Source: an uncultured archaeon
Lineage (GTDB): Archaea > Asgardarchaeota > Heimdallarchaeia > Heimdallarchaeales > Kariarchaeaceae
Assembly (NCBI GenBank): GCA_964645535.1
Contig: CAZYCQ010000029.1
Location: forward strand, 1 to 41,417
Length of the DNA: 41,417 nt
Direction of reading: 5' to 3'
Positions 3,019 to 24,618 of this stretch are shown here, piece after piece (the first letter of the stretch is position 1; the number at the start of each line of letters is the position of its first letter). The translations under genes and the position numbers were made by a program. Under the pieces are notes generated by a model. The model was not told the origin of the DNA. It did not search any database and saw nothing but the letters and a program-made list of their open reading frames with translations.

Positions 3019-3131
3019 TGGCGAGGACGGGATTTGAACCCGCGAGTGCGGAAGCACACTGGTTTTCAAGGTTCCTGTTTTTGCAGGAATTTTCAAGACC
3101 AGCCCCTTGGACCAGGCTTGGGTACCTCGCC
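3019..3131 (-). tRNA. tRNA-Ser(UGA) with a 27-nt intron at position 37/38 (3065-3091)
   Basis: Folds with acceptor stem GGCGAGG/CCTCGCC, anticodon stem CTGGT/ACCAG around loop CT-TGA-AA after intron removal, long variable arm GTGC-TTCC-GCAC, and T arm GCGGG-TTCAAAT-CCCGT. No CCA follows the discriminator base. Confidence 0.88.
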
Positions 3132-4974: not shown

Positions 4975-6498
4975 TCATAAATCAAGGTTTCCTAATTCGA
5001 TGGCACGCGAAACGGTTGCAAGGATGGAAATCATTGGATTTACACCTACAGCCGTTGGCAGGATGCTTCCATCAAGAACATAGACGCCTTTGTAATGGTG
5101 CATCTGTCCTGTTTCATCCACTACTCCGTTTTGTTTTGCCATTCTACAGGTTCCTAGGGGATGTGCACTGAAAAGGGAAACCCTATTTGGTTGGAAAGGA
5201 ATTTCTTTGATGATGCTTGCCTCCTGGATGTTCGTCAGTTTTAGGGATGGATTGACGAAGGGTCTTACCTCTTTGGCACCGGTTTTGAACATGATTCTGA
5301 CAGCTGCTTCAAGCCCCATTCTCATGTGTTTGAGATCTGTCGGCGATAATCGGTAACGAATGGAAGGCACCTTCTTGAAAGTTATTCTCCCGTTCTGTGT
5401 GTTGATTCCTCTTCTCCATCTGACCTCTCCATTGGTTTTACCGTCTGCTCCGTCTCTCACCAAGACGATAATGGCCGAGCTCTTGTAGAGCTTTTTGAGA
5501 CCTTCTCTTCGTTCTGACCCAATGGCCGGATAGTTCACTCCTGCAAGGAACACTTCCAGATCAGGTGATTCGAGCCAGTAGCCATATCCTGTTTCATCAA
5601 AATATTCTGCCGTTGCGCTTTGGGGAATTCCATATGTAGGATGAATGTCAGATTCAAACAACCCGATTGTCGCTGTAACTGGATGGACTGAAAGATTTTT
5701 CCCAACCTGTCCCCCTTTGGTCAATCCTGATTCTTGAAGGAGGAGTGGAGACATTATTGCACTTCCGCTGACGACAACTCTCTTTGCATTGAACCTCAAT
5801 GTTTGCCCTTTCATGGTTGCCTTGACGGTATGCCTGTCCTTGGCATCGGTAACGATTCTGTAGGCACGGGTAGATGTATAGGCATGGGTTCCCTGATCGA
5901 TGGCATCCTTCAGATATGTAAGACGCATATCCTGTTTTGCGTCATAAGGGCATCCAAGACCGCATCCTCCACACCCGATGCAGTCCTTTGAGTTATTTGG
6001 AAGAATGTCATGATGCATCTTGAGGGCTTTTGCTCCTTCGAGTATGATTCGATTGGCTGGACTGACGGCATAGTCCGGTACTTTATGAACATTCAACCTT
6101 TTCTCGACTGTATCGAAATGAGATTGCATGTTTTCTGGCAGGTATTCCTCAAGACCGAACCGATCAGCCCACTCTTTGAGCACCCAATCCGGTGTACGGA
6201 GGGATGTCATCCAATTGATTGTGGTGGATCCACCGAATGTCTTGCCTTGCAGGATCCGGAGTGACTGATCATCAGTTCCCAAAGAGGCATTCTGTCGATA
6301 GAGACGCGGCACCAGTTCTCGGGGATTCTGGTTGAAATCCTCTTTCGTAACATATTCTCCCTCTTCAAGAATAACGACGGAGTATCCTTGAGCTGAAAGT
6401 TTAGCAGCAGTGATTGCTCCTCCGCACCCAGACCCTATGATTATTACATCCGCAGAAATCTCTGTTGTTCCATCAAAATTTTCAGGAGTTGTAATCAC
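4975..6498 (-). CDS. GMC family oxidoreductase (long-chain fatty alcohol oxidase-like)
   Basis: IIGSGCGG FAD motif, GGSTTINW, CIGCGGCGLGC, SAHPLGTCRM and PTAVGVNPM. Confidence 0.9.
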   Translation of the reverse strand: MITTPENFDGTTEISADVIIIGSGCGGAITAAKLSAQGYSVVILEEGEYVTKEDFNQNPRELVPRLYRQNASLGTDDQSLRILQGKTFGGSTTINWMTSLRTPDWVLKEWADRFGLEEYLPENMQSHFDTVEKRLNVHKVPDYAVSPANRIILEGAKALKMHHDILPNNSKDCIGCGGCGLGCPYDAKQDMRLTYLKDAIDQGTHAYTSTRAYRIVTDAKDRHTVKATMKGQTLRFNAKRVVVSGSAIMSPLLLQESGLTKGGQVGKNLSVHPVTATIGLFESDIHPTYGIPQSATAEYFDETGYGYWLESPDLEVFLAGVNYPAIGSERREGLKKLYKSSAIIVLVRDGADGKTNGEVRWRRGINTQNGRITFKKVPSIRYRLSPTDLKHMRMGLEAAVRIMFKTGAKEVRPFVNPSLKLTNIQEASIIKEIPFQPNRVSLFSAHPLGTCRMAKQNGVVDETGQMHHYKGVYVLDGSILPTAVGVNPMISILATVSRAIELGNLDL

Positions 6499-17044: not shown

Positions 17045-18019
17045 ATGAATGATATTGGCTTCTTCTCCGAACTCATCTGGCTGAACGAACATGCCTTCGA
17101 AGAGAACAGGGAAGAATCTGTCGGCCATTTCCCGAAAGAAAGACCTACAAAGGATCTTTTGAATGCCGGACTTATCAATTTAGATAAACCAGCTGGTCCA
17201 ACCTCTCATGAAGTGGTGGCAACAGTCAAACGTATCTTGGGCATAAGCAAGGCAGGGCATTCCGGAACCTTGGATCCAAATGTAAGTGGAATCCTCCCTA
17301 TAGGTTTGATGAAGGCTACAAAACTACTCCATACCTTTCATATGATCCCTAAAGTCTATGTATGCAACATGGAGGTTCATGACCGAAGCAAGGAGATACC
17401 TTGGGAGGATTATCTCGAAGAATTTACTGGTCAGATCTATCAATTCCCTCCCCTTGAATCCAACGTCAAACGACGTCTCCGAAAACGAACTATTTTCAAA
17501 ATGGAATTACTTGAAACTACTGCTTCCGAAGTTCTCTTCACTGTTGAATGTGAAGCGGGTACCTATATCCGAACCCTTTGCGAGGATCTGGGAAGAGCTG
17601 CTGGAGTGGGTGCCCATATGAAGGAACTGAGGAGAATCCGAACTGGTTCCTTTACGGAAGAAACTAGGAAAACATTACACAATCTGTTCGATGCATATAT
17701 GGATTACAAGGAAGAAGGGGATGATCATGCCTTGAGAGATGTGATTCTTCCTGTCGAAATCGGAACCTCCCATCTTCCTGAACTCATTGTCCGGAATTCT
17801 GCCGTCTGGAACGTCTGTCATGGTGTCAAGCTTGGAGCAACCGGCATCTTGGGCTATTCCGCAGGCATTTCCAAAGGAACTCTCGTTGCTGCCAAAACCG
17901 CCAAGGGAGAATTGATCGGTTTGGGAACACTCTTGGTTGATCCCAATCAAATGGAAGGAAACAAGGAAGTCTTCAAAATTGACTCCGTGATTATCGATCA
18001 AGACCTTTACCCAAAATAG
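17045..18019 (+). CDS. cbf5: H/ACA RNA-guided pseudouridine synthase Cbf5
   Basis: LDKPAGPTSHEV, GHSGTLDP, CEAGTYIR and C-terminal PUA domain. Confidence 0.95.
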   Translation: MNDIGFFSELIWLNEHAFEENREESVGHFPKERPTKDLLNAGLINLDKPAGPTSHEVVATVKRILGISKAGHSGTLDPNVSGILPIGLMKATKLLHTFHMIPKVYVCNMEVHDRSKEIPWEDYLEEFTGQIYQFPPLESNVKRRLRKRTIFKMELLETTASEVLFTVECEAGTYIRTLCEDLGRAAGVGAHMKELRRIRTGSFTEETRKTLHNLFDAYMDYKEEGDDHALRDVILPVEIGTSHLPELIVRNSAVWNVCHGVKLGATGILGYSAGISKGTLVAAKTAKGELIGLGTLLVDPNQMEGNKEVFKIDSVIIDQDLYPK

Positions 18020-22694: not shown

Positions 22695-23645
22695 TTAACC
22701 GAAGAGACTGCCAAGACCAAGATCGGCCTCATCAATCTCTTCCTCTTCTTCCTCTTCCTCGGCCTCTTCAGCCTCGGTTTCGGAAGCAGTATTCTCCGTT
22801 GCAGTGACTGCGACTGCACTTGCCATTTCCTTAAGCTCATCAGATAGGGTATTCTCGTCAATACCCACCAAGACACGTGCCAAAGCGAGAACTTTCGCCT
22901 GTGCAGAGGCAAGCACGCTTTCGGCTGTATCTGGGGTAACATAGCCGATTTCTGCCGCCAAATTGAGAGCCTGTCGGTGCGCAGTTGCCAACATGCCGGG
23001 ATAGTCCTTTGCCAGTTCTTCCTTGTCAATCAGGATTCCACCGCTCAAGGCCACCTCCAGTTCCAGACCGACCTCGAAAGGTGTCAGACCTAGCCTGTTG
23101 AGAATGACTGCCAAGGCCTTGTTGACCCTTTCGCCTTCCTTAACAACAACCGTGTCGTTTGGAATGGCGATGGTTCCCCTCTCTATACGGGTGGGAAGAC
23201 CTACGGCATTCAGCTCACTGATGAAGGTGCCCGGAGGAACACCTGTGTTCATCTTTGGAACCAGGACATCTTTGGGTGCAATCTGTCCCGGACGAGCTGC
23301 GGCAGGAACCTTATTCTTTGCTAAATATTGTGCAATCTCAAATGGACTGCCATTGGCGAACAAAAAGGCCGCATTTCCCGAAATGTACTCTTTCAGAGCC
23401 TGAACGTTTTCAACATCGTCCTTGACCCGATCAATGGCCAGCTTCATGAGCGTGTTCTTTGCCATCTTCAAGGAAGAACCCCTTTCCCTCAAATCCCTCC
23501 TGATTTGGTGGACTGAGGTCTCACTCATGGGTTCCATCTTGACAATGCCGATGACCGAGTATTTCTTCAAATTCTCAACAAGATAGTCGAGCGTAACCGC
23601 CTTTTTGGGACGGCTTGACTTCTTCTGCGATATGACGACGCTCAT
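22695..23645 (-). CDS. rpl10: 50S ribosomal protein P0 (uL10)
   Basis: [25 protein letters not shown] and acidic tail GLGSLFG. Confidence 0.96.
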
Positions 23646-24295
23646 GCTTCTGCACCTCCGATCTCAACGGCAGGACCCATTGTTGTCTTGACATGCACAT
23701 GCTTGATGTTCTGTGCCCCCTGCTCAAGACGATTCTCAATGTCCCTGAGCACGACCTCAATATTCTCGGCAATCTCATCGTCATTCATGTCTCTTGTCGC
23801 AACACGAGCATGGATGACCGGATTCTGTCTCAACCTGAATTTCGTGGTCCGTGAGTACCTGTCGATCATTGTACCAAGATCTGCATTGGGAGGAAGAACA
23901 CTGGGGCTCTTGCCCAAAGGACCCAGATATCGACCAAGATTCTTACCGACCTCTGCCATCATCTGAGGGACAGCCAACACATAATCGACACTCTTGGCGA
24001 ATTTCTTCGCCTCCTTGGGATCCTTCGCCAACGCCTCCAATTGATCCTTGGTAAGGGTATAGGCAACCCCATACTCCTTGGCCTTGTCCAAAACATCATC
24101 CGGACCGACAACTGCCAGCCTCACCGGTTTGTTTGGACGGTGCGGAAGGACAATCTCTGCACGGAACCTCTTTGAAGGGTCTTTCAGATTAATGTTCTTC
24201 AGACCGATTGAGAGGTCAATGCTTTCCGTGAATTTTCTTTCTTTAGCAGCTTGCTTTGCTTTCTGAACTGCTTCCTTGATTGCTTTTCGATCGAT
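23642..24295 (-). CDS. rpl1p: 50S ribosomal protein L1 (uL1), apparently starting at non-canonical ATC
   Basis: The frame extends 57 codons upstream of the tracked ORF: IDRKAIKEAVQKAK...RKFTESIDL...LPH. It also has LGRYLGPLGK and VKTTMGP. An in-frame TGA lies three codons upstream of the ATC. Confidence 0.93.
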   Translation of the reverse strand: MDRKAIKEAVQKAKQAAKERKFTESIDLSIGLKNINLKDPSKRFRAEIVLPHRPNKPVRLAVVGPDDVLDKAKEYGVAYTLTKDQLEALAKDPKEAKKFAKSVDYVLAVPQMMAEVGKNLGRYLGPLGKSPSVLPPNADLGTMIDRYSRTTKFRLRQNPVIHARVATRDMNDDEIAENIEVVLRDIENRLEQGAQNIKHVHVKTTMGPAVEIGGAEA

Positions 24296-24302
24296 TGTTT
24301 GT

Positions 24303-24354
24303 CACCTCCTGCTCCTGAATCATAAATTCAGTCTACGCAGGTTTTCTGTAGACG
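24303..24354 (-). promoter_or_regulatory. rpl1 5' leader with a kink-turn overlapping the Shine-Dalgarno
   Basis: CCUGC-GUA-GA-CUGAAU-UUAUG-AUUCAG-GA-GCAGG followed by AGGUGA. Confidence 0.65.
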
Positions 24355-24618
24355 AAAAGTAAGCCTAGAATAGACTCACCTTACACATCAATGTTGATGC
24401 CAACTTTTTTAAATATGATGAAGCATCACGCTCCTCTCCCTGCCCTCCATTCCTTACCTTAAATTGCAAAATAAACCTGAATAGGGCTGTTGAAGCCTGT
24501 TCGTTCTAAGAATCCATGTCTGAGACTTCGATGCCTATAACCTCCTTTTGTTCTCTCTGCGTGTTCTTTAATCACTGCGTAATCAAAAAGCTTAAGTAGT
24601 TTTTTTTTTCTACAATTC

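What the first reader, a model, noticed from the sequence alone, without database searches (positions are those of the whole stretch)
24303..24354. Two-state kink-turn switch over the Shine-Dalgarno of the L1-P0-P1 operon
Seen, minus strand. State A is a textbook k-turn: C-stem CCUGC/GCAGG, bulge GUA, tandem G.A/A.G pairs and NC-stem CUGAAU/AUUCAG. Its 3' strand GCAGG includes the start of the SD (AGGAGGUGA). State B is the hairpin GUCUAC...GUAGAC, which uses the bulge strand and frees the SD. The two are mutually exclusive. Known: L7Ae binds k-turns in archaeal mRNA leaders, bacterial L10 leaders contain a k-turn, and L1 binds a kinked rRNA mimic. Inference: a protein-responsive translational switch which, with the AUC start, may be an undescribed ribosomal autoregulatory element. 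This is the best-supported novel candidate in the window.
Basis: partly seen in the sequence, partly recalled or inferred. Interest (0 to 1): 0.75.

Follow-up and report, generated by a model that had tools for sequence, protein, structure and literature searches.

The report
Permuted uL1 operator over Shine-Dalgarno
Just before the gene for ribosomal protein uL1 in an Asgard (Heimdall-group) archaeon, the mRNA carries a copy of uL1's binding site on the ribosome with its two strands joined in the opposite order, most likely so that spare uL1 can shut off its own operon: a known kind of feedback in a rearranged form, not a kink-turn switch.

Summary
It is conserved at the same place before uL1 in 34 of 35 genomes of the order, with strong covariation. 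The two G bases L7Ae reads (G1b, G2n) occur together in only 4 of 35. The kept bases are those of the 23S rRNA L1 stalk: the leader repeats the same-genus rRNA strands UCAG-GA-GC and UGC-G...A-CUGA in swapped order, so the motif's 3' strand runs into the Shine-Dalgarno. State B is about 5 kcal/mol less stable and occurs in three genomes of one genus. The permuted form also precedes uL1 in most Woesearchaeota-group genomes and in yeast RPL1B; E. coli and euryarchaeal sites follow rRNA order. The AUC start is real (AUC or AUA across the genus). There is no Rfam family, and I found no paper on the permuted archaeal form. This scan has already noted it on other DNA (e1-5423416, e1-5284524). Verdict: new variant of known uL1 autoregulation; binding and repression are inferred, not shown.

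The parts
24406..24413 (-). TATA-like box TTTAAAAA; predicts a start of transcription near 24384-24381 (inferred, not measured)
   Evidence: a TATA-like word lies 35-72 nt before the operator in most relatives, 36-37 nt in Heimdallarchaeaceae
24356..24382 (-). 12-bp hairpin at the predicted 5' end of the transcript
   Evidence: folds; hairpins of different sequence sit at the same place in other genomes of the family (by eye)
24348..24353 (-). GUCUAC: pairs with the operator loop (state B) or extends the closed helix over the SD 3' half
   Evidence: genus-restricted as state B
24308..24341 (-). Circularly permuted uL1-binding site: outer stem CCUGC/GCAGG (H78-like), loop GUAG, A24332 (A2173-like), inner hairpin CUGAAU/AUUCAG (H77-like), G24314 and A24313 (G2125- and A2126-like)
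   Evidence: rRNA match; conservation; model finds it only before uL1
24302..24310 (-). Shine-Dalgarno AGGAGGUGA, first three bases inside the operator's outer stem
24293..24295 (-). AUC start codon of uL1, 6 nt after the SD; the in-frame stop lies inside the SD
   Evidence: AUC in G001 and G002, AUA in G003; AUA in L207; alignment to solved uL1 begins at residue 1-2
23642..24295 (-). uL1 gene, 217 aa, first gene of the operon and presumed ligand
   Evidence: Pfam PF00687; C-terminal KTTMGP motif present
22695..23645 (-). uL10 (P0) gene, overlapping the uL1 stop
   Evidence: Pfam PF00466 and PF17777
22369..22674 (-). P1 stalk protein gene
   Evidence: Pfam PF00428

Best explanation
The leader is a translational operator for uL1. 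It copies the H77/H78 internal loop of 23S rRNA that uL1 binds, with the strands joined the other way round: H77 is closed by the hairpin loop and H78 is the outer stem. That puts the GGAG-bearing strand at the 3' side, where it overlaps the Shine-Dalgarno. Shown: sequence, pairing, conservation, match to the lineage's rRNA, and position. Inferred: when uL1 is taken up by new 23S rRNA, the 30S subunit opens the 5-bp outer stem (predicted cost about 7 kcal/mol, against about 15 gained from SD pairing if the usual anti-SD is assumed) and starts at the weak AUC codon. Free uL1 binds the loop, locks the stem, blocks initiation of uL1 and, probably by translational coupling, of P0 and P1. State B is the predicted fold once the ribosome site is open and may ease opening in this genus, but it is an accessory, not the conserved mechanism.
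For: Motif at a fixed distance before uL1 in 34 of 35 order genomes; the miss is cut by a contig end. Both stems covary. The 23S rRNA of same-genus G003 reads GUCAG-GA-GC and UGC-G...A-CUGAC, and the leader has the same words swapped; that arrangement occurs once in compact form in the genome. The variable position matches known uL1 sites: G or A both work in yeast RPL1B (PMC7732827); rRNA-order sites have A in Methanoculleus and U in a Methanotrichaceae MAG. My descriptor recovers a rRNA-order site about 30 nt into the uL1 gene in Methanotorris and Thermococcus, where the Methanococcus site is known to lie (from my own knowledge), and the E. coli rplK site. A covariance model hits only the uL1 leader in each genome where it hits. 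Published consensus: a stem with an internal bulge holding a G-A pair and an unpaired A (PMC3616713). Opening costs.
Against: The part of this genome's own 23S rRNA holding the L1 stalk is not assembled, so the match rests on same-genus genomes. In Heimdallarchaeaceae the leader has CCG/CGG where their rRNA has CUG/CAG, so the match does not track the rRNA in every family. The stem is predicted closed even without protein. In this genus the loop also fits a standard k-turn.
Confidence: 0.8

Rival explanations
1. Double-duty operator in this genus: the loop is a uL1 site that has also become a standard k-turn, so L7Ae gives a second input.
For: G1b, A2b, A1n, G2n, a 3-nt bulge, -1b:-1n = C:G and 3b:3n = C:G are all present in G000-G002. 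Every k-turn tested folds with L7Ae (PMC6298567). The genome encodes L7Ae.
Against: Only 3-4 closely related genomes; G003 has a 4-nt bulge. G at 2n is simply the rRNA base. The bulge ends in A, whereas all 10 strict l7ae-leader k-turns in these lineages end in U.
Confidence: 0.08
2. One reading: a two-state k-turn switch in which L7Ae-type binding flips state B to state A.
For: A and B exclude each other. B is the predicted fold when the ribosome site is forced open and lowers the opening cost from 9.2 to 6.8 kcal/mol against an A6 control. L7Ae leaders of this kind exist (PMC5539422).
Against: G1b plus G2n, the bases L7Ae reads, in only 4 of 35. B is populated at most 3% and found in three genomes. 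18% of random hexamers lower the opening cost as much. Regulatory l7ae k-turns lack the sequences that let them fold without protein; this one has both.
Confidence: 0.05
3. A mimic of the Kt-42 site bound by P0(P1)n, like the bacterial L10 leader.
For: The operon encodes P0 and P1; the L10 leader is k-turn based (PMC3616713).
Against: The bulged C in the NC stem and the paired-hairpin loop with two free As that define the L10 site are missing. This genome's own Kt-42 (CGC-UAA-GA-C-A / C-GA-GCG) does not match, and the k-turn is not conserved.
Confidence: 0.03
4. A protein-independent structure that only damps initiation or protects the 5' end.
For: The stem is predicted to be closed without protein.
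Against: This does not explain the invariant unpaired A bases, the G-C pairs flanking the loop, or the word-for-word match to the uL1 site.
Confidence: 0.04

Closest known systems
Yeast RPL1B 5' UTR element bound by Rpl1 (Roy et al. 2020, PMC7732827)
   Same: Same motif, same place (5' UTR of the uL1 gene) and, by my parse of the published sequence, the same permuted strand order: UAGUC-G...A-CCAA / UUGG-AA-GACUA. The GGAAG form equals that of Heimdallarchaeaceae.
   Different: Eukaryotic, no SD overlap, much longer loop; tested experimentally. The text I read does not call it permuted.
Methanococcales MvaL1 operon site (uL1-uL10-P1), also in Thermococcus
   Same: Same ligand, same operon, same internal-loop consensus.
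   Different: rRNA strand order, and about 30-40 nt inside the uL1 coding region rather than over the SD.
E. coli rplK (L11 operon) L1 operator
   Same: Same motif and logic: rRNA mimicry next to the ribosome site.
   Different: rRNA strand order; precedes uL11; the SD follows the structure rather than being part of the GGAG strand.
Archaeal l7ae 5' UTR k-turn (Daume 2017 PMC5539422; Huang 2019 PMC6298567)
   Same: A bulged stem-loop that hides the SD; in this genus the sequence fits a k-turn.
   Different: There the G.A pairs are kept and the RNA is unfolded without protein. Here G1b and G2n vary and the stem is predicted stable. This genome has a separate l7ae-leader k-turn.
Bacterial L10(L12)4 leader
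   Same: Precedes stalk genes; kinked internal loop.
   Different: Defining bulged C and two-A loop are absent.

Membership tests
uL1-binding mRNA operator (23S H77/H78 mimic) | G-G/A/U-A-G strand with the first G paired to C and the last G paired to C | tested here: met
   34 of 35 order genomes; invariant columns
uL1-binding mRNA operator (23S H77/H78 mimic) | Opposite strand C-(purine...)-A-C with an unpaired loop ending in A | tested here: met
   First loop base G in 32 and A in 3; loop 4-6 nt; rRNA has G or A there
uL1-binding mRNA operator (23S H77/H78 mimic) | Two helices flanking the loop, supported by covariation | tested here: met
uL1-binding mRNA operator (23S H77/H78 mimic) | Similarity to the organism's 23S rRNA site | tested here: met
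   Same-genus rRNA; the own rRNA stretch is not assembled
uL1-binding mRNA operator (23S H77/H78 mimic) | Located at the initiation region of the operon encoding uL1 | tested here: met
   single model hit in the genome
uL1-binding mRNA operator (23S H77/H78 mimic) | rRNA strand order as in E. coli and Methanococcales | tested here: not met
   Permuted. Not essential: the validated yeast site is permuted too
uL1-binding mRNA operator (23S H77/H78 mimic) | uL1 binds and represses translation | not testable with these tools
   needs binding and reporter assays
L7Ae-bound leader k-turn | 3-nt bulge followed by tandem G.A and A.G pairs in this sequence | tested here: met
L7Ae-bound leader k-turn | G1b and G2n conserved across homologues | tested here: not met
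   4 of 35, against at least 10 of 19 strict k-turns in l7ae leaders of the same lineages
L7Ae-bound leader k-turn | Unstable or unfolded without protein | tested here: not met
   State A dominates in the prediction; 3b:3n and -1b:-1n are both C:G, which favour folding in metal ions. Prediction only
L7Ae-bound leader k-turn | L7Ae binding and repression | not testable with these tools
   needs experiments
L10(L12)4 leader / Kt-42 mimic | k-turn with bulged C in the NC stem and a loop with two free As | tested here: not met
Any Rfam family | Match at gathering score or a meaningful E-value | tested here: not met

The most novel reading that the evidence does not exclude
In this genus one internal loop is read by two ribosomal proteins in two folds: uL1 as an H77/H78 mimic and L7Ae as a k-turn. 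With the state-B hairpin and a weak AUC start, this would tie uL1-P0-P1 synthesis to both proteins.
Probability: 0.08. Interest if true: 0.65.

Novelty: new variant of a known kind. Interest (0 to 1): 0.4.

Why it matters
It gives a compact, testable cis-regulatory RNA in Asgard archaea, for which I found no published r-leader. It shows that the uL1 operator exists in two strand orders across archaea. The permuted order lets the motif's GGAG strand overlap or (in Woesearchaeota) serve as the Shine-Dalgarno. The same order is used by the validated yeast RPL1B element, which raises the question of inheritance or convergence. The motif was not found in the Hodarchaeales genomes searched, and it is short enough to arise repeatedly, so convergence is at least as likely. 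Practically, it supports a new Rfam model and corrects uL1 gene calls that miss the first 10-35 residues because of the AUC/AUA start. The mechanism itself, uL1 feedback by rRNA mimicry, has been known for decades.

Tried and rejected
Rfam at gathering score and at E up to 10: nothing relevant. The own 23S L1 stalk is not in the assembly, and the 16S 3' end was not found by exact pattern, so the anti-SD sequence is assumed. Several primary papers (Nevskaya 2005, Hanner 1994, Kraft 1999, Shimmin and Dennis 1989) were not held, so I could not check the strand order of the Halobacterium leader; E. coli 23S numbering is from my own knowledge. A literature search for a permuted L1 site gave no relevant title, and the supplements of Eckert and Weinberg 2020 had no hit for L1-leader terms. 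The first alignment (A1) misplaced four leaders with an extra hairpin; A2 leaves them out. The state-A constraints were off by one and were redone. The bacterial sigma-70 scan does not apply to this archaeon. Metazoan L10ARE was considered as a relative, but its authors report no likeness to the L1 stalk. An AUC sequencing error was rejected because three other genomes of the genus share a non-AUG codon there.

Full report
Setting. The window comes from an Asgard archaeon: the closest named contigs are Ca. Heimdallarchaeota, near uL1 relatives are labelled Ca. Kariarchaeaceae, and genomes of the same order include Ca. Heimdallarchaeum aukensis. On the minus strand lie uL1 (24295-23642), uL10/P0 (23645-22695) and P1 (22674-22369). 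uL11 is on another contig, so uL1 heads the operon. A TATA-like box at 24413-24406 predicts a leader of about 90 nt (inferred).

Observation. All described pairs are present. State A is the predicted fold, with pair probabilities of 0.88-1.0 at 37 C. State B has probability at most 0.03, and its ensemble lies about 5 kcal/mol higher. State A covers only the first three SD bases, but GUCUAC can pair with the SD's 3' half and extend the closed form. A k-turn pattern alone is common: 95 matches in this genome, 13 ahead of an SD-like word. Rfam has no match.

Conservation. Leaders of uL1 from 35 genomes in four families of the order were compared. A descriptor finds the same two-stem internal loop 17-29 nt before the start in 34; the miss is cut by a contig end. 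On an alignment of 21 leaders, 96.7% of cells pair, 7 of 10 pairs change on both sides, and the covariation score is 0.53 against 0.23 for shuffles and at most 0.16 for slid registers. Kin are not independent, but the changes span several genera and families. The k-turn signature is not kept: 2n is A in 25, G in 6 and U in 4; 1b is G in 28; both are G in 4; a standard k-turn occurs in 3; the loop is 4-6 nt. L7Ae reads G1b and G2n (PMC6298567). As a control, l7ae leaders of the same lineages, including this genome, hold true k-turns: at least 10 of 19 by a strict rule, all with a bulge ending in U. A complement able to form state B exists only in G000, G001 and G002. In Heimdallarchaeaceae the TATA-like box lies only 36-37 nt before the stem, leaving no room for one.

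What the kept bases are. The 23S rRNA L1 stalk of same-genus G003 reads GUCAG-GA-GC on one strand and UGC-G...A-CUGAC on the other; G002 is the same except for A in place of that G. The leader has UGC-GUAG-A-CUGA first and UCAG-GA-GC second: the same words in swapped order, a circular permutation in which H77 becomes the inner hairpin and H78 the outer stem. This agrees with the published uL1 consensus (PMC3616713) and with the GGGAG or GGAAG core shown to be needed in yeast, where G and A both work at the variable position (PMC7732827). The same descriptor finds sites in rRNA order in E. coli rplK, inside the uL1 gene of Methanotorris and Thermococcus, and in the leaders of Methanoculleus and of Archaeoglobi, Thermoplasmatota and Methanotrichaceae MAGs, with G, A or U at the variable position. 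A covariance model finds one strong site in this genome (the training site; next best E = 3) and, in 121 Asgard genomes, ten hits, all at uL1 leaders.

Distribution of the permuted form. It is present across this order and in some genomes of one other family of the class. It was not found in 9 genomes of the Hodarchaeales group (named), nor convincingly in 40 loci from other Asgard classes, many of which have uL11 directly before uL1. It is present in 28 of 30 genomes of a small-genome phylum whose members are labelled Ca. Woesearchaeota; about 2.5 would be expected from shuffles, and roughly three hits are off position. There the GGAGG of the motif is itself the SD. The yeast RPL1B 5' UTR, parsed from the paper's supplement, is also permuted.

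Start codon. uL1 has no AUG, GUG or UUG until codon 58. AUC sits 6 nt after the SD, at the methionine position of relatives. G001 and G002 have AUC, G003 and a related metagenome contig have AUA. Public gene calls for these proteins are truncated to 183-206 aa. A crude genome scan found it the clearest strong-SD gene with such a start (three candidates).

Mechanism. Shown: structure, conservation, rRNA match, position. Inferred from the established uL1 system: uL1 prefers 23S rRNA, and surplus protein binds the mRNA copy. Opening the ribosome site is predicted to cost about 7 kcal/mol, against about 15 from SD pairing with an assumed anti-SD, so an unbound leader can be translated and a bound one locked. 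P0 starts inside the uL1 stop region, so coupling could carry repression downstream (inference). State B is the predicted fold of the open form and saves about 2.4 kcal/mol against an A6 control, but 18% of random hexamers do as well. It may be a genus-level aid, not the core. A weak AUC start would make initiation lean on the SD and so sharpen control (inference).

Rivals. An L7Ae two-state switch fails the conservation test. A P0 site lacks the defining features of the L10 leader and does not match this genome's Kt-42. Dual reading by uL1 and L7Ae in this genus is not excluded, because the loop there does satisfy the k-turn rules.

Novelty. uL1 autoregulation by rRNA mimicry is long known in bacteria, archaea and yeast. 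What differs is the permuted order with the SD built in, which I found neither in Rfam nor in the papers I could search; several older papers were unavailable. I reached this reading before consulting the scan's notes, which hold the same reading for other genomes. Those notes are not independent support, and they show the scan has already recorded the element. Verdict: new variant of a known kind, interest 0.4, confidence 0.8.

Noticed in passing
L166 (G000:C21, upstream of the l7ae gene that matches at 17572-17832, minus strand): A true k-turn (CCU-GAU-GA ... GA-GG) lies over the SD of l7ae and is conserved in relatives: the known L7Ae autoregulation extends to Heimdallarchaeia.
   Followed up: partly
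L133-L162, uL1 leaders: Woesearchaeota-group genomes carry the permuted uL1 site with the SD GGAGG as part of the motif (28 of 30 by descriptor).
   Followed up: partly
PMC7732827 supplement 1 (yeast RPL1B 5' UTR): The validated yeast uL1 element has the permuted strand order, like the Heimdall one; the link to eukaryotes is untested.
   Followed up: partly
L063 and L064 (Odinarchaeum group), uL1 leader: CUGC-GAG-UUAA ... UUGA-AA-GCAG runs into the SD, with a competing upstream hairpin GCCUUAAC/GUUAAGGU: a possible degenerate operator or a real two-state leader.
   Followed up: no
L005, L007, L009, L011, L058, L059: The operator's inner hairpin is extended by an extra bulged hairpin or branch of 26-68 nt.
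   Followed up: no
L048-L056, L194, L209 (Hodarchaeales group): No operator was found; the leaders are A-rich. In G252 uL1 is divergent from uL11, and in L209 it is followed by eL39-eL31.
   Followed up: partly
L016 (G013:C233:1674-2345): The uL1 match has an in-frame TAA and a longer span, and its operator has a 63-nt insert: possibly an insertion or an assembly error.
   Followed up: no
window 24356-24382, minus strand: A 12-bp hairpin at the predicted 5' end of the leader, followed by UUUUC; similar hairpins of other sequence occur in the family.
   Followed up: partly
window 3019-3131, minus strand: A tRNA gene with an insertion in the anticodon loop (probably an intron), the only Rfam hit in the window.
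   Followed up: no
G000:C37 minus strand near 5260: A 346-codon frame with a strong SD and a possible AUA start: a second candidate for non-AUG initiation.
   Followed up: no
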